A DNA stretch of 64,000 nucleotides from a virus: IMG/VR virus record IMGVR_UViG_3300020576_003639, positions 1 through 64,000 of that record; one strand, given 5' to 3'. A program made the translations under genes and the position numbers. Below are positions 3,969-56,751 of the stretch, piece by piece (position 1 is the stretch's first letter; every line of letters begins with the position of its first letter). Under the pieces are notes generated by a model. It was given only the letters and a program-made list of their open reading frames with translations, made no database searches and was not told where the DNA came from.

Positions 3969-4547
3969 ATGAATGAAATTTGGACACCAATCATATGATT
4001 TGAAGAAGATTATGAAGTAAGTAATCTTGCAAGAGTTCGAGCTTTTAGAGATTCTTGAATAAAATATGTTGCTCTTAATACCTTAAAAAGTTGATATACA
4101 CAAGTATCTCTTAGAAAGAATTGAAAACAATATACATTTTATATTCATAGATTAGTATGAATTCATTTTGTAGATAATCCAAATAATTATCCATGTGTAT
4201 TGCATAAAAAAGAATCAGACCCTATGGATGATACTGCATGAAATTTATTTTGGTGAACACATAAAATGAATACACAAGATATGTATTCAAAAAATAGAGA
4301 TAATAGTTGGCTTAGAAAAAATCATCCAATGAAATGAGTATTTTGAAAAGATAATCCACAGAGTAGAAAAATCTGAAAATATTCTAAACAATGAAAACTT
4401 ATTGATATTTATTATTGAGTTCGAGAAGCTGAAAGAATTACATGATTATCTCGATCAAATATTTCTCAATGCTGCAGATGAAAAGCTTATAAAACCGTAT
4501 GATGATTTATATGGAAATATATTAGTGATGACTGCATCGTGGGTTAA
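3969..4547 (+). CDS. HNH homing endonuclease (NUMOD4 + HNH_3 type) with C-terminal HTH
   Basis: WTPIIGFEEDYEVSNLARVRAF...GYTQVSLRKNGKQYTFYIHRLVGIHFVDNPNN...VLHK...NL.WGT. C-terminal GLSRSNISQCCRGKAYKTVGGFIWKY. Nine TGA=Gly. Confidence 0.7.
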
Positions 4548-4644: not shown

Positions 4645-5709
4645 ATGACTACTACACAAGAAGTAGCTCCTATAGATCAAACAGCCATGATGGCCATGAT
4701 GGATCGTGCTGAATCTGATTCAGGTACCTCATCAGTCATGAGTTGTCTTCATACTTTGAAGATCTATAATCCGGCACCTGGCGATATTCCTGATCCTGAA
4801 AAAGCAGGAAAGTTTAAGCTTAAGGAGGCCAATACCGGTGATGAGAAATTACTTGAATGAGAAATCAAATTCAATGTACTTTCTATCGCATATAACTGGA
4901 CTGGTGGGATTTATCCTACACACCCTGATGGATCTATTTCTGATGAAGAAGTAGTATTCTCAAGTTCAGAGTTTGGTAAGTATGAGAAGCGTACTGATGT
5001 CATCGGTCTTTCTGTAAAAGGAAGAGCTTATGCATTCTTTACAAAAGGCGAGTTCGAGACTATGATTAAGACTCCTATGCTTAATGGGATTACTAATCAA
5101 TTCTACGATAAGAAGAAAGATAAGGAAGGTAAACCTTATCATGGAACACTTCTCCGCAGATCTGCTGTAATTTACGGTCAATTCATCGGAGGTGAATATG
5201 ATAAAGAATACTTCCGAATGTTTACTTCTCCAAACAACATCGGTATCACTTATGATGCTGAAGCAGGTACAGCAATCGAACCTGATGAAGGAACTCTTGA
5301 GTATGTGACTATTCCGGCACTTGCTCAAATGAATGAGATTCGTACTCAGAATGGAAAGAAAGCTCTTAGTCGTGTATCTCACGATCAATGTGATGTTCTC
5401 CTTACTATTCGTACAAATGATAAGGGAAACTTCCTTCCGGTATTCTCATTTGCAGGGCTTACTGCTATGCGAGGTTACGACAATAGCGAGGATATTAAGT
5501 ACATTCATGATCTTAAGGCTGAACAATTCCGTTCAATCTTTGGTGTAATGGGTGCTGTTACTCCTATCACTATTGATGGTACTAAGGCTACTGTAGCTCT
5601 TCCGAGCGCTCCTCAGGATCATCATGCTATTGAAGCTCCTAAGGCAGCTATAACTGCAGCTGATGTAGATGATACATTTGATGGACCTTCTAAAGAAGAT
5701 TTCTAATAT
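4645..5709 (+). CDS. hypothetical protein (355 aa). Candidate single-strand annealing protein by position only, because it lies upstream of a PD-(D/E)xK nuclease.
   Basis: Single frame (ORFs 4645 and 5062 share phase, joined via one TGA). No motif recognised. Confidence 0.4.
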
Positions 5710-12644: not shown

Positions 12645-13382
12645 ATGATAGAAATTACACCTGAGAATTTCATTGAATATCTTCAGAATCCCTGACAGAT
12701 TAGTAAATGTTATTCTGCGTTTCATAATTATTCCACATTGAATCAATGGTTGGCAGCCTCACAGTGTCTACAGATTTGACCACTGAACACATTCAAATGA
12801 TGGGAGAAGCTTGGTAGGCATGTAAAGAAATGAGAGCGTGCTATCGCCCTAATAATGCCTGTTATTACGAAGGAGAAAAACGAGAAGTGAGAAGACGAAA
12901 TTAAATCTATGTTCTTTATGCCTCGTAGAAACTGGTTCACTGTCTATCAAACTGAAGGTGATGAGTTCATTCCTGAAGTACCTGGCTTTGACTTCACTCG
13001 TATAGATGAAGAACTCCAACTCGAAAGAGTAGAGTTCAATCATACAGATGGAAATTGCCAGGGATATGCTTCAGGGAATAAGTATGCTATTAATCCTGTA
13101 GCTGCGAATCCTATGAAGACTATGTTCCATGAAATGGCTCATATACTTCTTGGCCATACTGACATGCCTATGTCTGATAGTACCACGCTTGCGCGCGATA
13201 TCAAAGAATTCCAAGCTGAATCTGTAGCATTAATCTGTGCAGCCATTATTGGACAAACAGATGAGCTGAAGTATTCACTTGGATATATTCAAAGCTACTG
13301 AATACCAGAGGTTTTGGATAAAAAGATGATAGAAAAACTTTTTTCCGTATCAAATAAAATAATAAATGCTTGTAAAATTTAA
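12645..13382 (+). CDS. ardC: ArdC-like antirestriction protein (N-terminal ssDNA-binding DUF1738-like domain + HExxH metalloprotease domain)
   Basis: N-terminal ...LNQWLAASQCLQIGPLNTFKGWEKLGRHVKKGERAIALIMPV and C-terminal HEMAHILLGH. ORFs 12645 and 12909 are in phase and joined via TGA. Confidence 0.5.
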
Positions 13383-28126: not shown

Positions 28127-28702
28127 TTAATATTTCCAAATAAATAATCATGCAGTTTTCTGCCCTCATCTTGCACACCTAGAAATTCAAGATCAATGTA
28201 TTCATAAAAATTCTCATGCTTCATAAGCTGATCAGTATGTCTTGATTAGATTTCAATTTAAATCATATTGAGATACATTTTTTGATGTTGGATGATTTGA
28301 TCATTTTTTTCATTCCCAAAATTTTGGATGTTTAGTTTGAAATATATTATTAGCAACTCAATGCTTATATTGATCTAATACATTTGAACTTCTAGTACCA
28401 TATCTCAAGTTATCAGGATGATTATTTTTTGGATTACCATCATTATGACAAACTTCCATTCATTTAGGGCAAGGTCATTCTTTTATAAGCATAACTATTT
28501 GATGAATTCAAAATGATTTTGATAATCAATGTTTATATAATGCAGTTTGCATGTGTCATGATTTTCAAATTCATAATGACATTATTTTAACTTTTCAATT
28601 GTATAAACTTCTGATCTGATTAGTAGAAATTTTTATTTCATAAATCCAATCATATCATGGAATTTTTATCCAAGAATCAACATCTATTGTTTTTCGCTTC
28701 AT
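28127..28702 (-). CDS. HNH homing endonuclease (NUMOD4 + HNH_3)
   Basis: MKRKTIDVDSWIKIPGYDWIYEIKISTNQIRS...GHMQTALYKHG...IHQIVML...EVCHNDGNPKNNHPDNLRYGT...GISRCARGGQKTAGLFIWKY. About 17 TGA=Gly. Confidence 0.65.
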
Positions 28703-30531: not shown

Positions 30532-30813
30532 TTAGGAGTTTTTAATCAACGATCGGAATTTCACCGAGAATCTACACCAAACCTTTTTGTAAGGTTTAGC
30601 TTCCATGAGGATTCCAGTAGTAGGAACTACGACTGTACGCCCCATAGCTTCTTTTACTCAGAGAGTACATAGCTCGTAAATCGAGATATCAGATCCATTA
30701 AGAAGTTCTTTTTTGATTTTATCAAAAATCACATTGATAACATGTGTTGCTTCAACTTGAGTCATTCAAGTTTCTTTTGCAAGATGTTTTGCCAAGTCTC
30801 GATTCCTTATCAT
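30532..30813 (-). CDS. hup: HU/IHF-family DNA-binding protein
   Basis: ...LAKETGMTQVEATHVINVIFDKIKKELLNGSDISIYELCTLGVKEAMGRTVVVPTTGILMEAKPYKKVWCRFS matches the HU fold pattern. Confidence 0.6.
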
Positions 30814-30866: not shown

Positions 30867-31145
30867 TTAATCTTCGAATACAAACCAATCATTTGCAAGA
30901 ATATCCGTTTGTGAAATTGTCCATGGAACAACTTTATTATCTGTAGTCTTCATTGCTACATATGCTCCATAAGGAACCATATCACCAAAGTGCTTTCTAG
31001 CAGCATCAGTTTGTGCCTGATATGCTGAAGCATCTACAAGATATATGAACATGTTCTTTCCATTCCATCATGCACGAGCTAAACAGCGTCAAGCATTGAG
31101 ATAGTCCATAACTATTCCAATACCAAAATTATCTTTAGGTCCCAT
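30867..31145 (-). CDS. DUF2829-like small phage protein
   Basis: ...AGWNGKNMFIYLVDASAYQ...MKTTDNKVVPWTISQTDILANDWFVFED, a family pattern recalled for DUF2829. Confidence 0.4.
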
Positions 31146-31169
31146 AAAATAAAAAATAAAAAAATAAAA

Positions 31170-31442
31170 TTAATCTTTCCAAGTAATAGCTTTCACACAC
31201 CACATTTGTGATCCTTGAAGTTCAGTAATTGCTACAGAACATAGGCGTTTCACTTCTTGAGATTTTGTAGAAGATCGAAGATCATTCATCTCATCAATGA
31301 CAACAGCCATAATCTGCTTCACTTTATTAACTTCATCTGATCATCCAGGATTGAAGGTAAGGCCTACAGCCTTTTGTCCAAAACTAAGTTCAGGAACAGG
31401 AAGAGTAGATGGATCTGATTCAGGTACATCGTTAGGATTCAT
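31170..31442 (-). CDS. small conserved phage protein
   Basis: MNPNDVPESDPSTLPVPELSFGQKAVGLTFNPGGSDEVNKVKQIMAVVIDEMNDLRS...ITELQGSQMWCVKAITWKD. Confidence 0.35.
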
Positions 31443-31465: not shown

Positions 31466-31540
31466 TGGAGCTACTAGAAAGACTTGAACTTTCACACCAA
31501 GATTTGCAGTCGAGTGCATTAACCTTTCTGCCATAGTAGC
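31466..31540 (-). tRNA. tRNA-like element with a GCA (Cys) anticodon and an imperfect anticodon stem
   Basis: Minus-strand 75 nt: perfect 7-bp acceptor stem gctacta/tagtagc, D-loop with GG, T-arm gaaag-ttcaagt-ctttc, discriminator U + CCA, anticodon loop ctGCAaa. Two mismatches in the anticodon stem. Confidence 0.4.
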
Positions 31541-31670: not shown

Positions 31671-32168
31671 CTAGAGAGTAGGAGTTTTCTTCTTTTCAAG
31701 AAGTCGTCTTGGTCGAATGAGTATGATTCATTCCGGTCCATACTTTCTGATGCGATATCCTTTGTAGGGAATGATCTCGAGTATTCGATACTTCTGACAC
31801 ATGTACATTACATCATCTCAGATGTCGTATCATTTGCGGACCCACTTCTTTTGTGATTCTTTTCAAGCTTTTGTTTTTCTATATGCAAGATTCTTCTCTC
31901 GAAGTTTCTTTGCAAGTTCAGGATCAGAGAGTCTACGCTCTTTTTCATGATCTCGTTTATGCTGAAGATACTTTTCACGATTGATGATTCTCCAATTTGT
32001 ATAGGCTATCTTATGCTTATGTGCATTATCTTTTCGATATTGTCTAGCATATGCGGCATCGCACTTCTTACATATTGATCTGTATCAATTCGTTCGATCA
32101 TTTCTTTTAGCAAACTCTTCGAGATCCTTTTCGGTATTACACCGACTACAGATCTTTATCGAGCTCAT
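31671..32168 (-). CDS. basic zinc-ribbon DNA-binding-like protein
   Basis: MSSIKICSRCNTEKDLEEFAK...CKKCDAAYARQYRKDNAHKHKIAYTNWRIINREKY... Lys/Arg-rich. The stop TAG lies inside a cctac-ctagaga-gtagg hairpin. Confidence 0.4.
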
Positions 32169-32581
32169 AGAATCTTAAGTAATGAAAGTACATCTTCTGA
32201 TTTGTGTCCATCCCACTCAGGAGCATTATCTATTTCTGAACATGCCATATTATCCCATTCAGATTCTGGAAGATGATATGTAAGAGTCATTCCTGGTGAA
32301 GTTCATATTCATGCGATGAACCATCAATCCCACATAGTTCAATCAAAATGTTTCTTAGATTTCCATGGAATCATATCAGTGACAAGACTATCGTTTCATT
32401 CACTTACTTCTTCAATAAGAAGCTTGAAATCATTCATCTTATTACAGAGAGTAACAAATAATACCACTCGATGATCATAGAGTTCTTTGAACGAATGATA
32501 TCAATCGGTGATTAATTCTTTCTGATCCTCGGGAAGTTCTGAAATCATTTTATTGATTTCTTCTACAGTAGGGTTTGCCAT
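32156..32581 (-). CDS. hypothetical protein (141 aa)
   Basis: Minus frame traced through nine TGA=Gly (MANPTVEEINKMISELPEDQKELITDGYHSFKELYDHRVVLF...). Confidence 0.4.
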
Positions 32582-32598: not shown

Positions 32599-32673
32599 TG
32601 GAGCGAAACGCGGGATTCGAACCCACGATGCCGGATTTGAAATCCAGAGTCTTAACCGCTAAACGAGTTTCGC
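32599..32673 (-). tRNA. tRNA-Gly with UCA anticodon (reads UGA)
   Basis: Minus-strand cloverleaf: acceptor gcgaaac/gtttcgc (G1:C72, C2:G71, G3:C70), discriminator U73 + CCA, T-arm gtggg-ttcgaat-cccgc, anticodon stem ctgga/tccgg with loop ttTCAaa. The Gly identity elements point to Gly and not to Trp or Sec. Confidence 0.75.
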
Positions 32674-32834
32674 GAGCTATTGGTTCTAGCTAGAGCCAAT
32701 AAGAAGTATCATTTTGTGGTGGCCATAAATGATAAAAACCTCTAATGTTTATCCAAATCAATTCGCTCGAAGCGCTAGAGATCGTTTAGCATATTAGTAT
32801 GCGTTTATGGAGATCCTTTAAGCTAGGATCGTAT

Positions 32835-32910
32835 ATGGTTCGGGAGGTAGGATTCGAACCTACGATCTTTGGATTATGAGACCAATGAGTTGACCACTTC
32901 TCTACTCCCG
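32835..32910 (-). tRNA. tRNA-Met (CAU), initiator-like C1xA72
   Basis: 76 nt: acceptor ccgggag/ctcccga with a C1:A72 mismatch, T-arm gtagg-ttcgaat-cctac, anticodon loop ctCATaa, CCA end. An Ile-lysidine (CAU) identity cannot be excluded. Confidence 0.65.
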
Positions 32911-33077
32911 GAAATAATTATAGTATTTTTATTTTTCACTTAAATCTTTTTTTAACTCAGTTGTCACTTATTCAAAAATGAATTCATGCAGATCATACTG
33001 AATCTTTTCATACGGGGAAATCTAGTATATATGGATTATATTTTATTGATTCTGTTGGTAGTGAGAAAATCATATGA

Positions 33078-33440
33078 TTATAAATTTAGTAAAGTGATAG
33101 TAATATCTTTGTAGATTTGTTTTCTAACTTCATGATATCTTTTCCAGCTTCATATTCAAGGTAGATTTATAAAGTTTTCTTCGGATTCAATGTATTTTAG
33201 TAAAATCTCTCTTATTTGTTTTTTAGATATAAGTTCCTCTTCTTCCATTCAAGTTAAATAATACTTTGTTCATTTTCTCTCTAACATTCAAAGCTCTATA
33301 AGTTCTGCATAGATTAGTGAGATTGAACGAGTAGATTTATATCAGATATATTTTTGAAGTTCTCTAATAGAAGGCATTCTATCAAATTCTGATACAAACT
33401 CTTTTAGTTTAGAGTATAGATATTGTGTATTGAATTTCAT
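33078..33440 (-). CDS. winged-helix transcriptional regulator (LexA-N-terminal-like wHTH; candidate repressor)
   Basis: ...MPSIRELQKYIGYKSTRSISLIYAELIELGMLERKGTKYYLTG. Divergent from the replication module. Confidence 0.45.
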
Positions 33441-37718: not shown

Positions 37719-40700
37719 ATGGCCAACGATATTACAGCTCCACTAGAAGGTGCTGAAGCTCCTGGATTTTTCTCTCGAGGATGAGCGCTCGATAAAGGTA
37801 TACAATCAGTAGACTCTTTTTTCGAATGAGCAGCCAACATGGTTAAGGATACTACTGTAAAAGTAGTTACTTGACAATTTGATCTCAATCCAATGCTATC
37901 TGATCAGGATAAAGCAAAATATAATGTTCCACAACCGATCAGTGATAATGACCGAGCTCTGGCAAAAGAATCGAAAGCTATATCTGGTTGGCAGATGGCT
38001 AAAGATATTGGATGAGCTTTGATTGATTTTGGAAAAGATAAAATAGTATGAACAAATCTTTCCAGTAAATTGAATCAATGAATATCAGAAGATGACTTCA
38101 ATAAAACGATATCGAAATATCGTTGAGATATATCAAGCACGAATAAAATAATATCCGATATCATGTCCGCAGATCCTAAGTTTGCACAGTATCGTGATTT
38201 TGATTTTGCTTCTTACAAAAAATATCTTGATGCTAGGGGAATTACTTCAGTTCAAGATCCTGCAGATTATGAAGCATTTAAGAAAGCAGAAATGAGTAAG
38301 CTTAATGCTCTTGATCAACAACTCATTGTGTCCCAGTATCAGGAACTTCAGAATACTGTAAGTAAATATCAGCAACAGGCTCAGGCAAAACAAGCTGAAC
38401 TTGATTGATATCTCAACTCTGCAATCAAATGAGACTGAGAAAAAACTGGTGTACAGGTATTTGAGGATGTAGAAAAGGAATCACAGAACAGATTCAAGGA
38501 TAGCCAATACCTACAGTATAACCAAAAGGTAGCTACCTATGTTGACGAGATGGTCACTAAGGAACTCGAGAAAGATGGAAAATCAATATCTGGATTAGGA
38601 CAATCATTCACAAATCTTAAGGACTCTGTTGTGGAACAAATGACTGCATCTGAGATGTATCGTTTGGATCTTATCGGTATGGATGATCTTCCTGATAACG
38701 AAAAGTACGCGCAGATGTGGGGAGAAGCAAGTCAGAAATTCTACAACTTCAATTACGAGTTCATGCGTAGACTTTCTGCAGAGAAAGACAAGCCTGAAAA
38801 TAAATGAGTTGATGAGGTTGCGCTTCGTCAGAGAGTGCAATTAGAAACGTGGAGAGCTACTTCTCCTGAAGATAAAGAAAAGATGCGATGACGAGAAGCA
38901 TTAGCTACTGGAATTAATGCTATGGTAAATGCCAAACAATTGGGAGAACGTATTACTGATCTCAATCCTCAAGCTCTTCTTGATGGGCTATCTCTCGTAG
39001 GTACTACATTTCAATCCTATGTAGACCAAGCATTTGATTATAATCAGGAAATCCCACACTATATTCAGCAGGAGACTAGATCACTTCTTTATTCTGATGA
39101 GGGAAACCTCAGGAAATTTTGATCATATCTATCATACAATGCTGATGCTCTTGCATCGATGGCTATTCCAATAAAGGGAACTGGAATCGTGACTAAGGGG
39201 GTCGATAAGCTTATTGATGTACTCGCAAAGAATACAGATAAATTTGTCGGGATATCTACTAAGGTATGATTTACTCAATGATTTTTGAAGTTTATTCCAA
39301 ATGCAGCGAAGGGTATTTCTAATAGCCTAGTTAATGGAGCAGTAGGTGATCCAGTATTTGATAATCTCATGATGCAAGCGCCTACGGCTGCAGTTGAGAC
39401 AATGAATAATATTGCCAATCTATTCTTTGATGCCAGTCTATTTACTGGAGGTAAGTGACTTGTATACGGTTTAGAATGAACAAAAAATATGAATGGATTA
39501 ATGTTCAAGTTTCTCCACTGAGATGAGGCTGCAGCTGTTAAAGACTGGACTAAAGCATTCAATGATCACTATAATCCTGGACAAGCAATTAGCGAGGCAC
39601 AAGGTCGAGAGATTCTTGAGCAAGGCAAGAAGCTTTATGGTAACATGTATTCACCTCAAGAAATCAAAAAAACCTTCAATGAAAAATGAGGGATTTATCG
39701 TTATCTTGCGGACAATGTTTCCCAGATGACTGACTCTTGAATAAAAGAAGTACTCACTGGTAATGGTCTTGGAATTCGTATTGAGGATCTTGTAGGCATT
39801 CCAAGAAAAGAAATTGATAATCTCAATGGTCTTTTCGATGTTCATGCAAAAGTTTCTAATGATGAGACAAAGACTCGATTAGTATCGACTCGTATAGAAG
39901 AGAAACTCAATGCCATAAATGATTTTGTATCTAAGTGATCCCCTTATGATGATGTTATCATTCAGCAAAAGATGAGAACTAATCCTGAGTTTCTGAAGGA
40001 AGCAAAGGTAGTTGAAATAAAACTCGCTCAGATAAAGAGTCTTATGAAGGTTCCTAATTCTACCGATGAGATCAAGGGTCTTATTGGAGAAGTAGATGAT
40101 AGTATCCGTATGATGAAGGAGAACTATACCAATAGACAGTGGCCAACACAGGTCACGCTTGTAGATAGTGCATCCAAAAATGAAATCAAGATAGGGATAA
40201 AGGATCTCCGAGCAGATCTTGATGGAAAGAATTTCTCTGATATCGTAGCCGAAGGTCGTGTTACAATCAAGAAAGATACCAAAAATATCAAGCAATGAGA
40301 CTATTTCATCAAAGGAGCTGAGAACAATGTCTTTTCTTCTTATGTGGAAAGTTTCATGAAAAACATCGAGAATGATATTTCTGAGTTTGAAATAGCAAAT
40401 AATCTCGATCCTCTTACGGACAAGATTCGTCATTCTATTCAGAATGGTCTTCTCAATACTGGTAAGGTAGAGTTCTGATACCTTGCTAAATTTACCGGGG
40501 AGCAATATGATACTCAGATAAAGGCTCTTTGAGAATTCGTTAATAAGACTCTCAAGAATTTCTATGGTGAAAAATTTGTTAATCCTGAAGTACATTTTCT
40601 TGGAAAACAGCTTGTTAGTAATGAAGATGTAATAAAGGGATTCAATAATAATCCTGGATACATCAATCTCACATATGGTACATTTGCTAAGACAGATGAT

Positions 40701-43700
40701 GTTACAAAGATTACTGGTACAAAAAATATATTCTATGTATCTTTTGGAAAAGATATTGCTTCATCTGAAGTATTTGCCAAAAAACTCGATGGGAATCCTA
40801 AAGGAACATGAGCTACCGTTACTGCATATATCGCAAGCGCATCAAGTATCAACAAGCTTATTGTGAAATATGGCATTCAATCGGATTGATCTATTGATTT
40901 TTTCAAAGGGTTACAGAAGGCAAAGATTGTAGAATCTACAGCTAATGTAGATGGACTATTTATCGATTGAAAAATATCTCAATCAGCTATTGCAAAAATA
41001 CTTGATGATGCTATCAAGTGAGAAGATATGGATGATCTTACTAGAAAATGAATTCTTGACCTTGCTAATGGTCTATTCTCGGCATCAAGGCAAGAGGACT
41101 CTATGGTAATTAAGCCAATGATATATTCTCTAGTATCAAAATACTATGATAATAAGCCACTTATTGACGAGTTATTCACAAGATTCAGAATAGATAAGCC
41201 AGACTTCATCAAGGCATTTGCTGATATATTGATGAGTCCTGATACGTATAAAGACATTGCAGCGAAGATGGCATCTCGATGAGATCAAAAAGTTCTTACG
41301 GAATCATTCAGAGTAAAACATCAGCAAGCTTGGCTCGAGTATCATAATAGGCTTCAGTCTATTGTGGATAAACTTGATATCCAGATTGATGATGCTAAAG
41401 CCACGCGTAAGCTCACTGGATCAGCTGAGGCTCGAGAATTTATCGACATGAATATTGAAACTCTCAAGTCCAAAAAGTCTTCAGTACTCAAGGTAATGAA
41501 GAAAGAACAGGAGTTCAAGAATAATCTTCTCGAGAAAAATCTCCAAAATATCAATGTGGAATACTTGAAAAATATCTCTAATGATTTTTCTTTTACGAAA
41601 CTTCTTCGTAGAGAAAACCTAATAGGCAAAGGAAATCCAGAAGACCAACTCAAACAATATGTCTCAATGCGAGAACAGATCAAAGATCTCTATCCAAAGC
41701 ATAGAGATGTCTTTGATAGTCTCATTAGAGATATTGAGAAAGTCACTGATCCTATGGCTACTATGGCCGATCGTGCTAATCTTATCCAGAAATATGAGGA
41801 TATGGCGTTCTCATCTGATATTCTGAAGGATACCGTAGACAAGATGATTAGGCAGTATCTGTTTCCCCAGGATGGTATTTCTCTATACGATGTATCATAT
41901 CTCAGTAATATGATTGATTCGATGAAGGGAAAATACACTTATAATTTTGCCAAAGAAAATAACCCACTCAAGAAATGGTTATGAGGATGGATCAATAATA
42001 CGAACACCGGTCGTAATGATGTACTCGAGGCAAAGATCTCTGAGTATTTCAAAGAACCAACAGTCAAATCTGCTGATGAGATGTATGATAAGAATCCAGA
42101 GTTCAGAGATATGATTGATAGCCTTCGAGCTCAATCATCTTCAGAATGAGATGTAGATGTTCCAAAAGTCTATGTTAAGGCTATTCGTGATGGAAAAGAA
42201 TCTGTTCGAAAATTTATCTCTGAGATATTTCATAACATCGAGATAGATACCGATAGTCGTTGAAATATTAGCGCTGAGCTAGTGGATGACATATTAAATG
42301 AGTATGACATCATCAAGAAGCTTAAAGCCATCGCAAATCGCAAATTATCGAAGAATGATATCAATGTGTCGCTCATAGAGTGAGAAACAGAATTCGATAA
42401 GGTATTTTCAATCCGCAATGATAAGTACAATGAGAAGGTTCTTCAGATAGAAAACATGGAGAAAGCATGAATGAACTTCAGAGCTATCCGTGGATTTTCT
42501 GTAAACCAAGCATGATATATTAAAATTGGGGATACTACTCTCAACAAACTCTACGACCAGCATATAGTAGATTCTTTCATCAAAGATAAAGAGAATCCAA
42601 ATTTTGCTTACTCTACATCTTCAGAGAAGTATAAGCTTCTTACTAAGATTATAAATAATACCTTATCTGCTGAAGATTATAAAATATTAAATATTCAATG
42701 ATGAAAAGAGACAGTATCGTTAAATAAAATTAAAAATTTAATTGCTAAAAATGATAAGGAATTACTTACTAAGTATTTATCATTATCAAATAAAAAGTCA
42801 GACTCAATTGAATGAATCGTAGATTATATATCTTCTGATCTTAGATCTTGGATATTTGATTGAGATTGAACACTTAAAGAAAATATAAAAGCTAATTTAT
42901 CTGAAAAACAAATAGAGCAAAATTATAATACTTTTAAATCAAATTATTGAGAATGAAATAAGGATTTATTTGATTTTGAAGTATCTCTTATTAAGAAAAT
43001 ATATGAGAATATTGATTCTATAATTCAAGTAGAATGATCAGTTATTGATCGGAAATCAATTATTTCTCAGCTTGGAATCCCTGAGGATCATGTATTCGTA
43101 GGAAACTTTGGTGATAAAGATTCTCTCTACACTACTTACAAATCTGGTCTTGATATCTATACTGGTAAGGTTATTCCGGAAATAGAGGCATCCATCTACA
43201 AATATGAGTATGCTTTTGCTAATGGATATACTACTGGTAAGATGGAAAGTTTTGAACAATTCAAAAACAAGTTTCTTACAAAAAAGTTCTCTTCGTTCGA
43301 AGAATATAAGAACTATATGCATGATAATGTTTATGAAACTGTCAATGGAAAACGAGTGAACCAGTATATTCTTCCTCGTGATACTATCCGTAAGAGAGAG
43401 GCATTCAACATGAGTAACGATACTACTTTCGAGGATTATGTTGTGCCTACAAAGACTTATATCATCGAGAAGGAACTCAAGCAAATACCAGAACTCCAAA
43501 ATTTCCCTATGGTAAATGGAGAGTTTGATGGTGGAATAGATGATCTCATGAAACTTATCTCCGACTATCCTGAAAGTGAGGTAGCTACAGTTGTCCAAAA
43601 GAATTTGGATAACAATGTCTCAGTAGAGAAGATTATAAACTTTCTGAACACGACCTACAACAATGATCTTCAGGATGGTACTTCATTCGTATCCAATGAT

Positions 43701-46700
43701 CTCGCGAGAACTCGTGCATTTATACAGTGAGGGAACCGTGGGGTAAAAGATTTTGATGAAGGAAAACGACAATTCAAGGATCATTACTATGGAGATCTCT
43801 GAAACAAAAGATTTTGAGCAAAGACTTTGTTCAATGCTTCAGATATTCAGTTTGAATGAGCTCCTATCAAAAATGCTGTAGTCGTTGGTGATTCATCAAT
43901 GAAGCTCAAGGGTGGATACAAGAAGTATGATGAGCCGAAGGAGATCATGATCGATGGCAAGATGCATAAAGTTCTCGGGGAAGTGGAAGGAACCAATACT
44001 TCATTCTTCAAGAATGCAGCAAGTGATTCATTCAAAGACCATTCAGATCTCACGATGAGTGATTCTATCAAGGGTAGGATACCTGTAGAGCACGCAAAGG
44101 CTATTGAGCAACTTCAGATCCGTGATATAAAGCTCGCATTCCAGGAGGCCCTTTGAAGTCTTTCTGACTATAAGATATCTCTGAATTCCTTTGGAGATGT
44201 TACGGAACTTATCAAACTTATCAGTTCAGAGGCTAAGATTGGTATGGGTGCTGATGCAATAGTGAAGGGGAAGATGACAGATCTTCTCGTCAAGATTGAC
44301 GGTATTATCAACAAGCCAAAGAATCCAGGACAATCTATGTTCATCCGAGAATCGAATCTCGATATCGGTCGAAATGAAGTTATCATGAGTAAGGACTCGA
44401 GTTTCGTTATTCAGGCTCGTAAGGAAATTCAGGATGAGATCGATAAGCTCGATCCAAATACTGATGTAGAGAAGATCGCAGAGCTCAAGAAAGACATGAA
44501 GGATGGTCTATACACGGTAGGATACCGATATCCGGTTCCATCTATCTACAATCTTGGAGTATATAAGATCCGTATCCAAGAAGATCTTGATCCAAAAATA
44601 TTTGGACAGTACAAGAACATGGGTAAGGATCAGGTTATTACACATCCACTCACCACGTATATGAAGCTCGAGGGAGATAATGACGGTGACCACGTCTTCT
44701 TCTTATCTGCGAGATGAGAGATGGGTAAGATACTTTCCAATGCTGTTCTTTGAAAAAAACCAACAGAAGAAATCATTCCTATCCTCAAGTCAGGAAACTG
44801 GGATAATAAGTTTATCGTGGCAGAACAGGTTGAGAAGGGCATAGTCAATGACTCTGAGGATGTATCTCTCCTCGATTCTCGATCGATAGCACTTGAGGCA
44901 AAGGCTTCTATCGGTGTAGTATCGGCTACTCTACGTACTCTCGGTACACTGAGTCAGATGATGTGAGATTCGCTGAATGATGATAAGAAACTATTTTTCC
45001 AGGAGATTATTCCTTCTGAATCTGGGAAGGCAAAATCTTCTAATAGTGTGAAGACTCTCAAATTTATCAAGGATAAGATCGGTGACCTATCTTCAATAAA
45101 GAACAATCCAGAATTTGATGCACTTGCTGCATCGATTCTTCAGACAACTCTCGACTTTGGTAACTCAGGAAAGACAACATTTGACAAGGATTGGTATATG
45201 GATCTTTTGGAAAAGGTATGAATACCTCGAGAAAAGATTCCTGATATATACTACTCTATCATCTCCCCATTATCTATTGGGTACAATAAGACTGACATCA
45301 AACAAGGATACAAGCTTTGACTTGCTACGTTTGCACCTTCGTATAAAAAAGATCTCCTCTATTGAGTTACTGGTTCAAAAAGAGATATCTATGAGTTTCT
45401 TCTTGAGGGAGAAGTGTACAATAAGCGATCGATAGCTCAATTTGTAAATGATGTGAACAAGACTCATGATCTCAAATTCATCACAGATACATTGATGTCA
45501 TCATCAAAGGATATCAATGTGAAAGCAATTATCGATTATATGAATAAAGAGATCAAGAACTTCTCTACTCTTGGTTATATCAAGAAAGAGTACCGTGGTG
45601 ATTTCAAAAAATTCATAGGATCTCTTGGACATTCAGATCAGGTTCTGGAAACAATGAAAATGATAGATGACTATCATGAGATCCAAGATAACTACCTGGC
45701 AAAGAAAGAAATCAGTAAGAATCTTATTTCAAAAGTAAATAGTTTGAGCCCTGATGAGCGTGCTATAGCTGCACTATATGGTGCAGCTAATGGGGAAAGT
45801 AATCTATTCAATTACTTCACTACTCCTGAGAAACTTCTTTATCTCACGTCATCTGATCAGACATTTGTAAAAGATATAGGATCAGTATATGGAATAAAAC
45901 TTCCAAAAGATTCTCTTGATTATTGATCATTTAAAGATGAGATCATAAAAAATATATCAGATCTTACTAATGATCTGAAGTGAGAAAAGGATGAGTGAGC
46001 AATAGATGCAATCGAGTATAATCTCGAGAAACAGAAAGCAGCACTCAGCGATATCGATCAGCTTATTACAGATCTCGAGGCTAAGAAGGATATTCCTGAT
46101 GACATTGTGATAGATGAAGTCAAGATCCCAGAAGTATGAGAAGTCGTGTTTCCAGAGTTCACATTTGCAGAACTCGATACATCTCCACAATCCGCTAATG
46201 AAATTCTTTCAGAGCATGTCGATATGGTAACGCTCGCTAGAGATTGATGGAAGCTCACTATGCAAAGCATGTTCAATAAGTATAGTCCTCGATTGGCTCT
46301 CAATTTTGATACATTGGCAGACTTCCTCAATGCCAAGAATAGGGTTCTATCGAATGCTAGTAACGAACATGTCCGTCAGTTCGGTGATCTATTCTTTGGA
46401 TACAAAAATTCTATATACCGACAACTCAAGAAAGCATGAGTTCCTAAAGAGAAGCTCGATCGTTTAGGTCTTGTTATTCAACACTCTCTGATTGGTAATG
46501 CTGGTGGAGTATTCCATTGAATGGAACAGGATGTAATCATCAAGAAGCTTACTGGTACTCTCGAGGAATATGGTGTAGGTCATCTTATCAATGATCCAAA
46601 ATTTATGGATGAGATCTTTGACTACAATGATAAGGTAATATCTGTAGCAGTAGAGAAGCTTAATCAGATTCAAGAATCATTTCACTTCGATATCTACAAT

Positions 46701-49700
46701 TCGTATAAGGATCTCGATCTCTCTATGATCACAGATCTCTTCGAGGCTCATAAGTGAGATGCACAGTTTGCCCTTAAGCTCACTGGTATTAAAGATCGAC
46801 AAGCATTCGAGAAATACATAATGGATAATGCAGCACAGATGGGGGAAAAACCATTGGAAGCAACAGTCAGATCAATGGGGAATGCGGTATATAAGAATCA
46901 TAGTGGTATGGACTTCGTATTGAACTTTGTGAAATGAGTTCATTACGAGATGACATATGGAACCGCAGCAACATTACTCACTCAGAATAATATAGTTGCC
47001 GGCCTTACTCAGATTCTTCCAAATTATACAGAGCTCCGATCGTTTATTGATAAAGATCCTTCTGCTATACGAGAATGACTTTATGTAATGTCGAGATATA
47101 ATCTCCTCGACGCTGAAGATGTACTGCAAATGGGTACATGATTCTGAAAGAATATGAAGAATACTTGGCTCGGATGAGTAATCCAGAAAGCAACGAAAGA
47201 TCTCACAGAGGGAACACTATCTGCAGTTTGAGTTACGAAGAATAAAGCTATACGAGCATCAGAGTTCGTTGATTCCGTAATGAACAATATGCTTGGATTC
47301 AATGACTGGCCGCTTGAGAATCTTCGTAAGATAGTCGCTACCAAGAAAGCAATGGATCAGCTATGATATAAAACTGCGAAAGAACTAGAGGATGCAATAG
47401 AAAGAGGGTGATTAGATTTTGAGATGGCATTCAGATCACATGTAAGAAGAAACTTTGCCAATACTGGATGATGAGTAGTGTCATCTTCCCCAATTGCGTC
47501 AGGAACAGTATTCGAAAATTCATATGAATACTTGAGAACAGGAATAGTCCCAGTAGACTTCTTCGTAGAATTTGGTGTGAAGTCCCTCTGATATCTTATG
47601 TGATGGTCATTTCATAAGTCGGCTACTCTCTTAGAGAAAGAATCAGCATTATTCACATGATTAAAGAAGCTTGTCATAGACAAAGATCCTAGAGCATTCA
47701 AGGCACACTTCAGTGATTGGGCTGCATATAACCTCATGTTGGGAAGACAGGTAGGAACAACAATGGGTCTCTATCTTAAATTCCAGAAATATGAGAAAGA
47801 TAATGATGATCGTATATCTTTGGCATCATTTCAGAAACAGTTCAATAATGCTTTTGTAGCAATACTAATTCCTCTCGAACGACATTTCGCAGCATTCGAA
47901 ACTGCTGAAAAACTTGGGACTGGATCAGATGCAACCCTCTATACCATGAATAGTGTCTTCAAACAGATGACTCGTCTATTCAAACAATGAGCGTTCTTCA
48001 ATACAATGTTTGATCGTTATAGGGAGAAAGAGGCATTAGGTGAAGCAGATATGCTTGATGCAATGCAATATGCAATGGATGTTCATTATACTGCATATAT
48101 GAGATTCTCTGGGATGCAGACTACCAATGATTATTATAACACCCTTGGACAGCAAACTAATCTTGGAATCTTATGAGTAGGTGGTAATACACTTCAAGAT
48201 GATATTGCAAAAGAATTGATGGAATGAAGTACCTTTACATCTTGGAAAGAAAAATGATTCATCTGAAGTCTTCTATCAGGATTCAGTCAAATGTTTAGGA
48301 CATCGGATACAGATCTCTCAATGAGCGTAGCACAGGATCTTGCAAAAGAGATTCGTGATAGAGTCACTCGTGATCCACAGTTATCAAAACTTCTTAAAGG
48401 ATGACAGATTGGTACTGGAATACAGGACTATAATATCACTAATCTTGTAGGAAATAACAAGATAATGTCTCCTGAGGAAGAATGAGCTACATCAGATATA
48501 TGGAAAGAAATTCAGTACTATGCCTATAAGAGCATCGATAAAGATGGAAAGCTTAAGGTGTACGGATCTGATGGAAAACTTATTGTCCAGGACAAGATTC
48601 AACAGATTCTCGAAGAGAGAATCACCAAGGAGCTGGCAAAGAAATGAATCAATATTTCTGATATCATTGCTAGATGACCTGGTTACGATCCAGCTCTTTT
48701 GAAAACTATTGCAGTACTAGGTCTTGATTCAGAGCTTAAGACTCCGCTAGTGATTGCAACTCTTATGGAAATGGAGAATAAGAAGCTCAATGCAGATAGA
48801 AAGAAGACGGAGTGAGTTCTCACCGGTGAGAAGTCGGCATATGGAACTCCATATAAAACTCTTACAACAGAACAGTATATCCGATCTCAGCGAGATATTA
48901 TTCTGAAGTACCAAGAATACTTCAATCTTGATAATAATCTAGTGCAGTCCATCATAGAGAAACACATTGCCAAGAATAATGTTGATCTTTTCGAGAAGTT
49001 CGATAAGGTGACAAATCTTAAATTTATCAAGAACGATGTATACGATCTGGTGAAGAGAGAGTATCTAGCTAGAAGTGTTATGAATAACTGAGATACGAAG
49101 GTTTCATCACTTCAGAGTAGATACGCTCTTGCATATAAGGGAATAAAAGATTCAGAGACATGAGTACAAGTTGTACTTAATCATCTCAGAGAAATTGAAT
49201 CGCTTCCTGCTATGGATGCTAAGACGAAGCTCGCGAATCAAGCAGCAGCTCTTATGAGCCTTAATACAACTCAATACGGATTACTCAAGAATAATAAAGA
49301 GTTTGCTAAACTTACGGAAGATTCTCAGAAGCAAATTACCAATTGGTTATTCAAAGTATCATCAGCAAGTCTTGATTTTGATAGCAATACAATGGCATCA
49401 AAAATGAATCAGGCTGCATGATCTCGTCAGGCCACTGGTAAATGATATGCAAGAGTTCTTCCTAAGCCTCAAAGCTCATCATTCTCATGACAGAGACCAA
49501 ACTTTTCTCAGCAGTTTTCTCCTATTAGAGATTTCATTCCTGGAAAGGAGAAATATCTTTCTTCTGATCCGAATAGATTTCTACAGGCAAAACAAGATTT
49601 TATTCCTCGGAATAATCTCTTTAATCCTGCGCAATTCCCAATCGTTCAGGAGTATGCAAAAATTATGATTAGTAACATATACTACGGTTATGAATCAAAA

Positions 49701-49877
49701 GGAACTATTCGCACTGGTTCTTGAGATAAAAAGTTTGATAAAACTCAGAATACGAGTATAAAGATAGCGAAACCAAAGAAAGCCAAAGCCACAAAAGAAT
49801 TTAAAAAATTCAAGATAGCTCCAAAAGTATCTATGTGAATGCGGCCGGATCTTCCACTCGCTAACTATTGAGACTAA
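37719..49877 (+). CDS. giant protein (about 4052 aa) with a multisubunit-RNAP beta-prime-like DPBB catalytic domain (DxDGD). Candidate crAss-like virion RNA polymerase / giant virion protein.
   Basis: Twelve track ORFs all in phase 0. The gap 39122-39972 was verified codon by codon: nine TGA and no TAA/TAG. Frame-0 stops are at 37701 (TAA) and 49875 (TAA). The region near 44520-44700 reads YRYPVPSIYNLGVYKIRIQ...GKDQVITHPLTTYMKLEGDNDGDHVFF. This parallels beta-prime NRAPTLHRLGIQAF...[26 protein letters not shown]. Confidence 0.7.
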
Positions 49878-55413: not shown

Positions 55414-56751
55414 ATGGCTGATGCTGTTGGTACTACTGGTACCGTGGACTGAGTCCTAAATGTCGTTACATCTAAGGGAATCCAAACAATCAACGCTTGG
55501 ATCCGCGATTTTCCTGCCCTCATGTATGTTGGTATGAATCTTCAAAACATGTTCAAAGATGGAGGAACTCTCAAACGAGGTGGTCTTTCATTCGCTGATC
55601 AGCAATCTCTTAAGTTTAAGAATATCGGTTCTCTTGAAGCTGATATGTCAGTAACTAAGAATGAAGTAAAATGGTACGAAGTTGGAGCATTCGCTGATAG
55701 CGCGCTCATTACTGAGGCTAATGCATCTGCAGATACTACTGTTAAGGTAGCACTCGCTGATCTTGATATCTTCAATGTTGGTGACGTTGTTGCTATTCGT
55801 GCTAAGTCAGGAGGTACAACTCCTAATGCTCAAGCAGAAATTTCTTCTATCAATACTAGTACTGGACAGATTACTCTCGATACTGCAGTTGTTACTGCTG
55901 TCGGTGATTCAATCATGTTTGCTTACAACCTTATTACTCATAAGGCTGAAATCGATCGTACTGTAAATGGTACAAATCAAACTCCTGTTACTACTTACTT
56001 CCAAAAGTTTGGTGGTTCAGTTGAATTCGATTCTCAGGATCTCAATGTTACTCGTCTTCTTACAGACGCACAGGAGTATGTTAAGGGTAAATTTGCTGTT
56101 ACGATTAATCTCGCCAACAACACATTCGCTCGAACATTCTACCTTGGTCGTAATATTTCAGGTACTAAGAGTGAGACTCAGGGTCTTGATGCACTCATTA
56201 CTGAGAAGGCAGTTCGTGATGGATCTGCAAATGTAATCATTGACTTTACTGGTGTGACTGTTGCTAAGGATAAGGCTAAACTTCTTGTTAGGACTCTTAA
56301 CGAAGCTTCTTCTGCTCCTGTCTATGTTGGTGGTGAAGTTCCTACAGTTTACTGTAACTACGCATTCATCGATGCTCTCTCTGAGATCCTCTATGATATG
56401 GGTAACTTCTATACTCTTAAGGATAAGGAAATCGAATTTGGGCTTACTCAATATTCTTCTCCTTACTTCAAGAATGTACAGTTCATTGTTGATACTGTCC
56501 TCAATAATCTTGAGCAATATCAGTCAGTTGCTTACGTCTTCCCTAAGCATCTCGTTACATTCAAGACTCCTGAGTACCAATCAGTAAATGAATCTGGTGC
56601 GCTCGTTAAGTCTTCAATGGGTGGATATACAGTTCTTAAGATGCCTCAAACATCTGTAGACTTCGTTAAGTATACTGCACAAATGACTATGGCCAATGTT
56701 TTCGCAGGTCAAACATTCAAGAATACTTATAAAAAGATCATCGGATTCTAG
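55414..56751 (+). CDS. major capsid protein
   Basis: 445 aa after scaffold. Only one TGA, at codon 13. Strong terminator downstream. Confidence 0.6.

What the first reader, a model, noticed from the sequence alone, without database searches (positions are those of the whole stretch)
32599..32910. Phage-borne tRNA-Gly(UCA) paired with an initiator-like tRNA-Met(CAU) between divergent gene blocks
The UCA anticodon reads UGA. The acceptor stem G1:C72/C2:G71/G3:C70 plus discriminator U73 are Gly identity elements. Carrying its own UGA decoder lets the phage support dense TGA use (up to about 7% of codons in tail genes) whatever the host tRNA supply. An 11-bp perfect hairpin (32683-32705) lies between the two tRNAs.
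Basis: seen in the sequence. Interest (0 to 1): 0.7.

Follow-up and report, generated by a model that had tools for sequence, protein, structure and literature searches.

The report
Phage tRNA that reads TGA as glycine
A roughly 67-kb phage that uses TGA as a glycine codon carries its own TGA-reading glycine-type tRNA next to an initiator-like methionine tRNA; this is real, but the same thing has been reported in another phage of these bacteria and close relatives manage without it.

Summary
Both tRNA genes are real, lie at the stated coordinates, and are on the minus strand. A third tRNA, Cys(GCA), sits 1.1 kb further along.

- **tRNA(UCA):** it is a normal 75-nt cloverleaf with G1:C72, C2:G71, G3:C70, U73 and an encoded CCA. 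This meets the published rule for glycine-type tRNA(UCA). It is not Trp-like and not Sec-like.
- **Meaning of TGA:** TGA means glycine here. It swaps with GGN in relatives and never with TGG or TGY. It fills invariant Gly positions of helicase motifs.
- **TGA use:** 73 of 74 ORFs contain TGA, and it is the most used Gly codon (38%).
- **tRNA-Met:** it is initiator-like, with a C1xA72 mismatch and A11:U24, but has only two of the three anticodon-stem G:C pairs.
- **Hairpin:** it is a 24-nt near-palindrome at 32678-32701 with 11 of 12 positions complementary. It is one of several conserved hairpins in a structured spacer.

The Met-UCA pair is patchy among relatives. It is present in four other lineages and absent from at least five with equal or higher TGA density. 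The tRNA is therefore an optional supplement in a code-25 host, not a requirement.

A patescibacterial phage with tRNA-Gly(TCA) plus tRNA-Met is already published (mBio 2026). This is a new member of a known kind.

The parts
32599..32673 (-). tRNA-Gly-type tRNA(UCA), 75 nt, CCA encoded
   Evidence: ARAGORN. Rfam tRNA model 55.5 bits. G1:C72, C2:G71, G3:C70 and U73 read from the sequence. It meets the Gly rule of PMC8629427. A near-identical copy with one A4->G change is in relative L011.
32836..32911 (-). initiator-like tRNA-Met(CAU), CCA encoded
   Evidence: ARAGORN. Rfam 65.9 bits. It has a C1xA72 mismatch, A11:U24, A73, G29:C41 and G30:C40, with U31xU39. A homologous tRNA sits at the syntenic site in L001-L005, L011, L206, L207, L209 and L210.
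32674..32835 (-). 162-nt structured spacer between the two tRNAs. Supported hairpins are at about 32812-32830, 32702-32743 and 32678-32701.
   Evidence: Three-sequence alignment with L011 and L210: 38 predicted pairs, 96.5% of cells paired, and 12 pairs changed on both sides against 1 in every slid control. The window copy alone folds with z = -2.4. No Rfam family matches.
   Evidence: the repeat finder pair I8: 12-nt arms, 92% complementary, 0 nt between the arms. Four pairs show compensatory changes in L011 or L210 (helix 6).
31466..31540 (-). tRNA-Cys(GCA), the third tRNA of the same leftward block, with U73 and two mismatches in the anticodon stem
   Evidence: ARAGORN. Rfam 55.1 bits, with two non-standard pairs marked in the anticodon stem. 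ARAGORN finds no tRNA-Cys in any fetched relative.
33078..33440 (-). first ORF of the leftward block, upstream of the tRNAs, 120 aa with 6 in-frame TGA
   Evidence: ORF call with TGA as sense. Weak, sub-threshold match to the LexA DNA-binding domain (E 0.0025).
32156..32581 (-). WDGH-domain ORF, starting 17 nt downstream of tRNA(UCA)
   Evidence: Pfam PF25311, E 7.5e-32. In relatives without tRNA(UCA) this gene follows tRNA-Met directly.
30867..31442 (-). two anti-defence-like ORFs downstream in the same block: Acb2/Tad1-hairpin-like (31170-31442) and Tad2-like (30867-31145)
   Evidence: Pfam PF24729, E 1.1e-7, and PF11195, E 9e-21.

Best explanation
The window is nearly the whole genome of a roughly 67-kb tailed phage that uses genetic code 25 (TGA = Gly). 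Its host therefore almost certainly is a code-25 patescibacterium of the Gracilibacteria/Absconditabacteria kind.

Near the start of its leftward gene block the phage carries a small tRNA cassette:
- an initiator-like tRNA-Met(CAU);
- a 162-nt structured spacer;
- a glycine-type tRNA(UCA);
- a tRNA-Cys(GCA) 1.1 kb further on.

This block is probably expressed early and also holds anti-defence genes.

The proposed mechanism is as follows. The tRNAs are transcribed with this block, cut out of the precursor, and charged by host enzymes. The host glycyl-tRNA synthetase would recognise G1:C72, C2:G71, G3:C70, U73 and C35 on tRNA(UCA). The charged tRNAs add to the host pool during infection. TGA is the phage's most used Gly codon, at 38% of Gly codons.

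The cassette is an accessory trait that is gained, lost and swapped among close relatives. It is not what makes TGA readable.

Shown here: the tRNA genes and their features, TGA = Gly, and the patchy distribution. Inferred: charging with Gly, early expression, and a benefit through tRNA supply.
For: - **tRNA genes and features:**
- **TGA is a sense codon:** ORFs of at least 100 aa cover 92% of the window with TGA as sense and 40% under code 11.
- **TGA = Gly, first codon comparison:** at well-aligned codons against six relatives, window TGA faces GGN 48 times and TGG 0 times. Window GGN faces TGA 137 times.
- **TGA = Gly, second comparison:** against seven relatives, window TGA faces Gly 80 times, and relatives' TGA faces window Gly 148 times. 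Trp and Cys are faced 0 times.
- **Standard-code homologs:** TGA aligns with Gly in solved Pif1-like helicases. Examples are GKAxTxKS against GRAGTGKS, PFGxIQ against PFGGIQ, and LKVxARVM against LKIGAQVM.
- **Codon use:** 448 of 1193 Gly codons are TGA, and 73 of 74 ORFs contain TGA.
- **Published Gly rule for tRNA(UCA):** PMC8629427.
- **The Met-UCA pair recurs:** it is in L011, L210 and L206/L207. L006 and the IMG/VR contig L170 also carry a tRNA(UCA).
- **Indel:** a 237-nt indel (spacer plus tRNA) separates the window from L001-L003.
- **No code-switch accessories:** no release factor or aminoacyl-tRNA synthetase was found among the larger ORFs scanned.
- **Precedents:** RSA-ATP1, a code-25 Absconditicoccaceae phage with tRNA-Met(CAT) and tRNA-Gly-sup(TCA) (PMC13059738). 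Code-25 phages with about 90% of genes holding TGA are read as infecting code-25 hosts (10.1101/2021.08.26.457843).
Against: - No host is identified, and no host tRNA-Gly(UCA) could be fetched for comparison.
- Charging with Gly is inferred from identity elements only.
- A supply benefit is not demonstrated. Carriage of tRNA(UCA) does not track TGA density: carriers score 0.31 and 0.35, and non-carriers range from 0.22 to 0.96.
- The likely capsid gene almost avoids TGA (1 of 34 Gly codons). This could mean TGA decoding is limiting, or simply reflect gene history.
- Only about 10 kb either side of the primase gene was visible in relatives. A tRNA(UCA) elsewhere in their genomes is not excluded.
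- The tRNAs sit among anti-defence genes, which fits the counter-defence rival equally well.
Confidence: 0.6

Rival explanations
1. Counter-defence or insurance. The phage tRNAs replace host tRNAs that are cleaved by tRNA-targeting defence nucleases, or that are lost when the host shuts down. They would not serve to match codon usage. The initiator-like tRNA, the single-isoacceptor tRNA(UCA) and tRNA-Cys would be the targets in this host group.
For: - The tRNAs are embedded in a block with Acb2/Tad1-like and Tad2-like anti-defence ORFs.
- The cassette is patchy and exchangeable. L210 keeps the spacer but carries a quite different tRNA(UCA) allele (U2:A71, A3:U70).
- Carriage is unrelated to TGA density.
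- Every initiator-like copy in the clade has a 31x39 mismatch next to the anticodon loop.
- Published cases show phage tRNAs evading anticodon nucleases and retron effectors (PMC10264068 and PMC11555353, listed).
Against: No tRNA-targeting system is known or shown for the unknown host. Nothing in the anticodon loops was shown to differ from host tRNAs, because no host tRNAs were available. Co-location with anti-defence genes may only mean that all are early genes.
Confidence: 0.25
2. Code-switch suppressor. The phage infects a standard-code host and uses its own tRNA(UCA) to read through TGA stops, as proposed for code-4 and code-15 gut phages.
For: A phage-borne stop-codon decoder is the hallmark of those systems. 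Liu et al. report code-25 phages matched by spacers of non-code-25 bacteria (PMC10746230).
Against: - 73 of 74 ORFs have in-frame TGA. These include the ORF upstream of the tRNAs (6 TGA), the primase (18) and a 4052-codon ORF (94). No set of early genes is readable under code 11.
- Close relatives with as much or more TGA lack the tRNA in the syntenic region.
- No release factor or synthetase gene was found.
Confidence: 0.04
3. The tRNA(UCA) is not a glycine tRNA. It would be a Trp (code 4) or Sec tRNA, a Cys-accepting tRNA (U73, C35 and A36 are shared with tRNA-Cys), or a pseudogene.
For: ARAGORN labels it 'SeC' from the anticodon. Public protein databases translate this clade with TGA = Trp, giving W contents of 3-9%. 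U73, C35 and A36 are also CysRS determinants (established knowledge).
Against: - The discriminator is U73, not the G73 of Trp or Sec tRNAs.
- The tRNA is 75 nt with a 7/5 acceptor/T-stem arrangement and a 4-nt variable loop. True Sec tRNAs found are 95 nt with a long extra arm and G73.
- The general tRNA model outscores tRNA-Sec within the Rfam clan.
- TGA never aligns with TGG or with Cys codons.
- The cloverleaf is intact, and the one change in L011 (A4:U69 to G4.U69) preserves pairing.
Confidence: 0.03

Closest known systems
RSA-ATP1, an Absconditicoccaceae tailed phage (PMC13059738, mBio 2026; preprint 10.1101/2024.03.08.584096)
   Same: It is a code-25 phage of a patescibacterium and carries tRNA-Gly-sup(TCA) together with tRNA-Met(CAT). 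Most of its genes hold in-frame TGA, and it is read as adapted to a code-25 host.
   Different: [quoted passage not shown] This phage is about 67 kb, has a 4052-codon ORF, and carries tRNA-Cys(GCA) instead. No sequence relationship could be tested. Neither the tRNA nor the capsid-like protein matched any GenBank phage record in the collection searched.
Cellular tRNA-Gly(UCA) of Absconditabacteria (SR1) and Gracilibacteria (Campbell et al. 2013; rule in PMC8629427)
   Same: The anticodon is UCA, and G1:C72, C2:G71, G3:C70 and U73 are present. The surrounding genome reads TGA as Gly.
   Different: This copy is encoded by a phage, inside an accessory cassette. Other phage copies in the clade relax 3:70 to A:U (L006, L206) or change 2:71 as well (L210). 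Direct similarity to a host copy was not measured.
Suppressor tRNAs of code-4 and code-15 gut phages (Borges et al.; 10.1101/2021.08.26.457843)
   Same: It is a phage-borne tRNA that decodes a canonical stop codon.
   Different: Those phages infect standard-code hosts, keep their early genes free of the recoded stop, and often add release factors or synthetases. Here TGA is in 73 of 74 ORFs and no such accessory genes were found.
Bacterial initiator tRNA-fMet, and phage-encoded copies of it
   Same: It has a 1x72 mismatch, A11:U24, A73 and the CAU anticodon. The relatives' copies also share the 5' CGCGG, GAGCAG, AGCUCG and CUCAUAACCC segments with the E. coli initiator (recalled from memory; alignment).
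   Different: Only two of the three conserved anticodon-stem G:C pairs are present. Position 31x39 is mismatched in every copy of the clade. The window copy also has C2:G71/G3:C70 instead of G2:C71/C3:G70.

Membership tests
Glycine-type tRNA(UCA) of genetic code 25 | Canonical cloverleaf tRNA with anticodon UCA | tested here: met
   ARAGORN finds anticodon tca at position 34. Rfam RF00005 scores 55.5 bits over the full model.
Glycine-type tRNA(UCA) of genetic code 25 | G1:C72, C2:G71, G3:C70 and discriminator U73 (rule used in PMC8629427) | tested here: met
   Read directly from the minus-strand sequence. The rule is quoted.
Glycine-type tRNA(UCA) of genetic code 25 | The genome that carries it uses TGA as a glycine codon | tested here: met
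   TGA interchanges with GGN and never with TGG or TGY. TGA sits at invariant Gly positions of helicase motifs against solved structures.
Glycine-type tRNA(UCA) of genetic code 25 | Charged with glycine by GlyRS | not testable with these tools
   This needs an aminoacylation assay or tRNA sequencing of charged tRNA.
Glycine-type tRNA(UCA) of genetic code 25 | Sequence similarity to tRNA-Gly(UCA) of Gracilibacteria or Absconditabacteria genomes | not tested
   The single genome-contig scan returned only tRNA-Glu(UUC) loci, because the pattern was too loose. No host tRNA was obtained.
tRNA-Trp(UCA) of genetic code 4 | Discriminator G73 (plus A/G1:U72), with TGA interchanging with TGG | tested here: not met
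   The tRNA has U73 and G1:C72. There are 0 TGA-TGG exchanges.
tRNA-Sec | About 90-95 nt, extended acceptor/T helix, long variable arm, G73 | tested here: not met
   The tRNA is 75 nt with a 7/5 arrangement, a 4-nt variable loop and U73. Genuine 95-nt Sec tRNAs were seen in L256 and L269 for contrast.
Bacterial initiator tRNA-fMet | Unpaired 1x72 | tested here: met
   C1xA72 in the window and C1xU72 in the relatives.
Bacterial initiator tRNA-fMet | A11:U24 in the D stem | tested here: met
   Invariant in all six aligned copies.
Bacterial initiator tRNA-fMet | Three consecutive G:C pairs, 29-31 with 39-41 | tested here: not met
   G29:C41 and G30:C40 are present, but position 31x39 is U.U in the window and U.U or A.C in the relatives.
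Bacterial initiator tRNA-fMet | G2:C71 and C3:G70 (formylase determinants in E. coli) | tested here: not met
   The window has C2:G71 and G3:C70. The relatives L001-L005 and L011 do have G2:C71 and C3:G70.
Code-switch suppressor tRNA of phages that infect standard-code hosts | The recoded stop is absent from early genes, so they can be read with the host code | tested here: not met
   73 of 74 ORFs hold TGA, including the ORF ahead of the tRNAs and the replication genes.
Code-switch suppressor tRNA of phages that infect standard-code hosts | Accessory release factor or aminoacyl-tRNA synthetase genes (frequent, not universal) | tested here: not met
   None was found among the ORFs scanned with PHROGs and Pfam. 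The N-terminal half of the 4052-codon ORF and most ORFs under 150 aa were not scanned.
Code-25 patescibacterial phage with its own tRNA-Gly(TCA) (RSA-ATP1 type) | Phage genome readable only with code 25, carrying tRNA(TCA) | tested here: met
Code-25 patescibacterial phage with its own tRNA-Gly(TCA) (RSA-ATP1 type) | Sequence relationship to RSA-ATP1 | not tested
The GenBank phage collection gave no match to the tRNA or to the capsid-like protein.

The most novel reading that the evidence does not exclude
The Met-spacer-UCA unit may be an exchangeable tRNA expression cassette with a new structured RNA leader. Three conserved hairpins are kept even where the downstream tRNA(UCA) allele has been replaced. 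Its job would be counter-defence or host-range control: keeping UGA-Gly decoding and initiation running when the host's single tRNA-Gly(UCA) or its initiator tRNA is attacked or scarce. Simple codon matching would not be its role.
Probability: 0.2. Interest if true: 0.55.

Novelty: new member of a known kind. Interest (0 to 1): 0.35.

Why it matters
It adds an independent and much larger phage lineage to the single published case of a phage that carries the UGA-to-glycine decoder of code-25 bacteria. Comparison with about ten relatives shows that the decoder is optional, patchy and exchangeable. That argues against the view that the tRNA is needed for recoding. The question then becomes what accessory benefit it gives: supply or counter-defence.

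There is also a practical point. Public protein databases hold this clade translated with TGA = Trp. Every TGA-encoded Gly is therefore wrong in those entries, which can mislead homology and structure work.

Tried and rejected
- **Metagenome scan.** A 20-mer of the anticodon arm gave two chance hits inside ORFs of GC-rich contigs, with no tRNA.
- **IMG/VR, primase and first tRNA pattern.** Neither the primase protein nor the first tRNA pattern found relatives.
- **IMG/VR, looser Gly-type pattern.** It found 65 loci. Only 5 hold a tRNA(UCA), and only one of those (L170) is TGA-recoded.
- **IMG/VR, 16-mer of the anticodon arm.** It gave mostly chance hits plus two genuine Sec tRNAs.
- **GenBank phage collection.** No match to the tRNA or to the capsid-like protein.
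- **Spacer loop motif TTATGGCCACCACAAA in IMG/VR.** Only chance matches.
- **Nearest-neighbour classing against locally collected tRNAs.** I reject this as an identity test. The collection had been selected by my own patterns, so it was enriched for Glu and for GCU-ending tRNAs. It did reveal the near-identical copy in L011.
- **Rfam at a permissive threshold.** Nothing was found in the spacer.
- **Campbell et al. 2013 (PMC3619370).** The paper is not held.

Full report
**1. What is in the sequence**

ARAGORN finds three tRNA genes in the 64-kb window, all on the minus strand:
- Cys(GCA) at 31466-31540;
- a tRNA with anticodon UCA at 32599-32673;
- Met(CAU) at 32836-32911.

Rfam's general tRNA model matches all three over its full length, at 55.1, 55.5 and 65.9 bits against a gathering score of 29.

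Read from the minus strand, the UCA tRNA is a standard 75-nt cloverleaf. It has a 7-bp acceptor stem, a 5-bp T stem, a 4-nt variable loop, G1:C72, C2:G71, G3:C70, discriminator U73 and an encoded CCA. ARAGORN's 'SeC' label comes from the anticodon alone. Two genuine Sec tRNAs met later are 95 nt long, with a long extra arm and G73.

**2. The genetic code of the window**

With TGA as a stop, ORFs of at least 100 aa cover 40% of the window. With TGA as sense they cover 92%, and one ORF reaches 4052 codons. TGA makes up 2.8% of codons and occurs in 73 of 74 ORFs of at least 70 aa.

Three independent lines show that TGA means glycine.
- **Codon exchanges, six relatives.** At well-aligned codons of four orthologous genes, window TGA faces GGN 48 times and TGG never. 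Window GGN faces TGA 137 times.
- **Residue exchanges, seven relatives.** The commonest non-TGA partner of TGA is Gly (80 and 148 cases). Ser, Ala, Lys, Asn and Asp follow. Trp and Cys score zero.
- **Standard-code homologs.** Against solved Pif1-like helicases from standard-code organisms, TGA falls on invariant glycines. GKAxTxKS aligns with GRAGTGKS, PFGxIQ with PFGGIQ, and LKVxARVM with LKIGAQVM.

TGA is the single most used Gly codon, at 448 of 1193 Gly codons in ORFs of at least 150 aa.

The database homologs of the primase carry 3-9% Trp and as little as 0.2% Gly. They were translated with code 4, so W and G alternate at the window's TGA columns.

**3. What kind of genome this is**

PHROGs and Pfam identify the following:
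- a Dda/Pif1-like helicase;
- a primase/DnaB-like helicase;
- an amidase endolysin;
- an HU-like protein;
- an HNH homing endonuclease;
- an SPFH protein;
- an ArdC-N-like protein;
- Acb2/Tad1-like and Tad2-like anti-defence proteins;
- weak portal-like matches.

Relatives occur on contigs of 67.0, 67.1, 67.7 and 68.8 kb from four different samples. The window is therefore nearly a whole phage genome.

No release factor or aminoacyl-tRNA synthetase was found among the ORFs scanned.

**4. Identity of the two tRNAs**

Shulgina and Eddy classed tRNA(UCA) genes of Absconditabacteria and Gracilibacteria as glycine acceptors if they have G1:C72, C2:G71, G3:C70 and U73. They classed them as tryptophan-type if they have G73 (PMC8629427). 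The window's tRNA meets the first rule in full and fails the second.

The Met tRNA shows these initiator hallmarks:
- an unpaired 1x72 (C1xA72);
- A11:U24;
- A73;
- G29:C41 and G30:C40.

Two features are atypical. The third G:C pair is replaced by U31xU39. Positions 2:71 and 3:70 are C:G and G:C, rather than the G:C and C:G of the E. coli initiator.

The homologous tRNA in relatives has C1xU72, G2:C71 and C3:G70, and also carries a 31x39 mismatch. 'Initiator-like' is a fair description. Full membership is not shown.

**5. Context**

The tRNAs lie inside the leftward block, not in the gap between the blocks. The order on the minus strand is as follows:

| Feature | Coordinates | Note |
|---|---|---|
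| ORF | 33078-33440 | weak LexA-DBD-like match, 6 TGA |
| tRNA-Met | 32836-32911 | |
| Spacer | 32674-32835 | 162 nt |
| tRNA(UCA) | 32599-32673 | |
| WDGH-domain ORF | 32156-32581 | starts 17 nt after the tRNA |
| 165-aa ORF | 31671-32168 | |
| tRNA-Cys | 31466-31540 | |
| Acb2/Tad1-like ORF | 31170-31442 | |
| Tad2-like ORF | 30867-31145 | |
| HU-like ORF | 30532-30813 | |

The rightward block starts at 34222 with an HTH_36 protein, followed by the primase gene.

A TATAAT hexamer lies 5 nt upstream of tRNA-Met (32917-32922, read). The promoter scan did not call it, because there is no matching -35 element, and the scan as a whole found no more sites than shuffled sequence.

**6. The hairpin and the spacer**

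Its arms are 12 nt, 11 of 12 positions are complementary, and no loop separates them. It ends 4 nt before the tRNA(UCA).

It is not an isolated feature. The spacer is shared with L011 (131 nt) and L210 (143 nt). On the three-sequence alignment, 38 predicted pairs are 96.5% paired. Twelve pairs changed on both sides while keeping the pair, against one in each of six slid controls and 0 of 500 shuffles.

The best-supported helices are at about 32812-32830, 32702-32743 (with an invariant loop AUGGCCACCAC) and 32678-32701. G.U pairs fall mostly on the tRNA strand, which favours an RNA structure in the tRNA precursor. With only three sequences this is suggestive, not proven. No Rfam family matches.

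**7. Do relatives carry the pair?**

The primase has 59 homologs, almost all from TGA-recoded contigs. I fetched the neighbourhood of twelve of them.

| tRNA content of the locus | Loci |
|---|---|
| tRNA-Met plus tRNA(UCA) | L011 (UCA tRNA differs by one base), L210 (same spacer, different UCA allele: U2:A71, A3:U70, U73), L206/L207 (the two tRNAs 1 nt apart; A3:U70) |
| tRNA-Met only at the site | L001, L002, L003-L005, L209 (L209 has six other tRNAs 5 kb away) |
| No tRNA in the locus | L208, L009, L007/L008 |
| tRNA(UCA) with Gln, Tyr and Leu tRNAs at the same place | L006 (45% primase identity) |

An unrelated code-25 IMG/VR contig (L170) has a similar tRNA(UCA). Against L001-L003, the window has a clean 237-nt insertion made of the spacer plus the tRNA. 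The cassette has therefore been gained, lost and swapped repeatedly.

**8. Is the tRNA needed for dense TGA use?**

It is not. The TGA share of Gly codons in the same four orthologous genes is shown below.

| Locus | tRNA(UCA) in locus | TGA share of Gly codons |
|---|---|---|
| window | yes | 0.31 |
| L006 | yes | 0.35 |
| L209 | no | 0.22 |
| L001 | no | 0.34 |
| L003 | no | 0.48 |
| L208 | no | 0.48 |
| L002 | no | 0.54 |
| L009 | no | 0.96 |

TGA is also present in the ORF transcribed ahead of the tRNAs and in all replication genes. The host must decode TGA as Gly on its own.

This matches the published criterion for code-25 phages of code-25 hosts, in which about 90% of genes carry TGA. 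It argues against a code-switch role.

One caveat applies: only about 10 kb on each side of the primase gene was visible in relatives.

**9. Most likely mechanism and rivals**

The best reading (confidence 0.6) is an accessory tRNA cassette of a code-25 phage. It would be expressed with the probably early leftward block and charged by host enzymes. It would add to the pool for the phage's commonest Gly codon and for initiation.

The main rival (0.25) is that the tRNAs insure against tRNA-targeting defences or host shutdown. Four observations favour it:
- the neighbouring anti-defence genes;
- the allele replacement in L210;
- the lack of any link to TGA density;
- published precedents (PMC10264068, PMC11555353).

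A code-switch role in a standard-code host (0.04), and a non-Gly identity or pseudogene (0.03), are close to excluded.

**10. Comparison with what is known, and novelty**

- Code-25 phages of Absconditabacteria and Gracilibacteria are established (10.1101/2021.08.26.457843; PMC10746230).
- The Borges preprint (10.1101/2021.08.26.457843) tabulated suppressor-tRNA frequency by code, including code 25.
- RSA-ATP1, a 39-kb Absconditicoccaceae phage, was described as the first patescibacterial phage with tRNA-Gly-sup(TCA). It also carries tRNA-Met(CAT) (PMC13059738).

The finding is therefore a new member of a known kind, in a different and larger phage lineage. What this analysis adds is the patchy, exchangeable distribution, the absence of any link to TGA density, and the conserved structured spacer.

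**11. Verdict**

Interest is 0.35.

Noticed in passing
window 31466-31540 (-): A third tRNA, Cys(GCA) with U73, lies in the same leftward block. Its anticodon stem has two non-standard pairs (U28.U42 and C29.U41). ARAGORN finds no tRNA-Cys in any of the fetched relatives.
   Followed up: partly
window, all ORFs (e.g. 55414-56751 vs 59918-61396, 3969-4547, 28127-28702): The TGA share of Gly codons ranges from 3% to 94% among ORFs of at least 150 aa. It is about 3% in the capsid-like ORF (1 of 34) and in ORF 4645-5706. It is 77-94% in several structural-block ORFs and in the HNH endonuclease genes. This could reflect expression level or mosaic gene origin.
   Followed up: partly
window, whole; CGA is a common codon (6.9 per 1000) that interchanges with AGA, CGT and AAA, so it means Arg. 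CGG is nearly unused (0.6 per 1000). Absconditabacteria are reported to read CGA and CGG as Trp (PMC8629427). This phage therefore fits a host that keeps CGA = Arg, which would be Gracilibacteria-like rather than Absconditabacteria.
   Followed up: partly
L009 (JGI 3300028549, GC 24%) and proteins P0027, P0031, P0053: In some AT-rich relatives TGA encodes about 96% of all glycines (277 TGA against 12 GGN in four genes). The database proteins show about 9% 'Trp' and 0.2% Gly. The GGN box is almost abandoned.
   Followed up: partly
proteins P0001-P0058: Public protein entries for this whole clade were translated with TGA = Trp (code 4) instead of Gly. Every TGA-encoded residue in them is wrong.
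   Followed up: yes
window 37719-49877 (+): This is a 4052-codon ORF with 94 TGA, conserved in relatives (3934-4774 aa). It has no Pfam match in its C-terminal 1921 aa. It contains the segment EGDNDGDHVFF, which recalls the metal-binding DxDGD motif of multisubunit-type or crAss-like virion RNA polymerases. That resemblance is from memory only and was not tested.
   Followed up: no
window 30867-31442 (-) and 12645-13382 (+): Anti-defence-like genes are present: Acb2/Tad1-hairpin-like (E 1e-7), Tad2-like (E 9e-21) and an ArdC-N-like protein (E 2e-7). This suggests that the host group has CBASS/Thoeris-type signalling defences.
   Followed up: no
window 32836-32911 and L001-L005, L011 (alignment A1): Every initiator-like tRNA-Met of the clade has a mismatch at 31x39 (U.U or A.C) where initiators normally have the third G:C pair. 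The window copy has also exchanged its upstream region and about 20 of 76 positions relative to L011 and L001.
   Followed up: partly
L210 495-570 (-): L210 keeps the same structured spacer, but the tRNA(UCA) behind it is a different allele (G1:C72, U2:A71, A3:U70, U73, a different D arm, 76 nt). This allele does not meet the strict published Gly rule.
   Followed up: partly
L171, L184 and other IMG/VR loci: Several phage tRNAs that ARAGORN calls Glu(UUC) have a GC-start acceptor stem, U73 and an encoded CCA (GCAAAGG...CCUUUGC-U-CCA). This is unlike the acceptor end of bacterial tRNA-Glu. One locus gave an ambiguous 4-base anticodon call (ttca).
   Followed up: no
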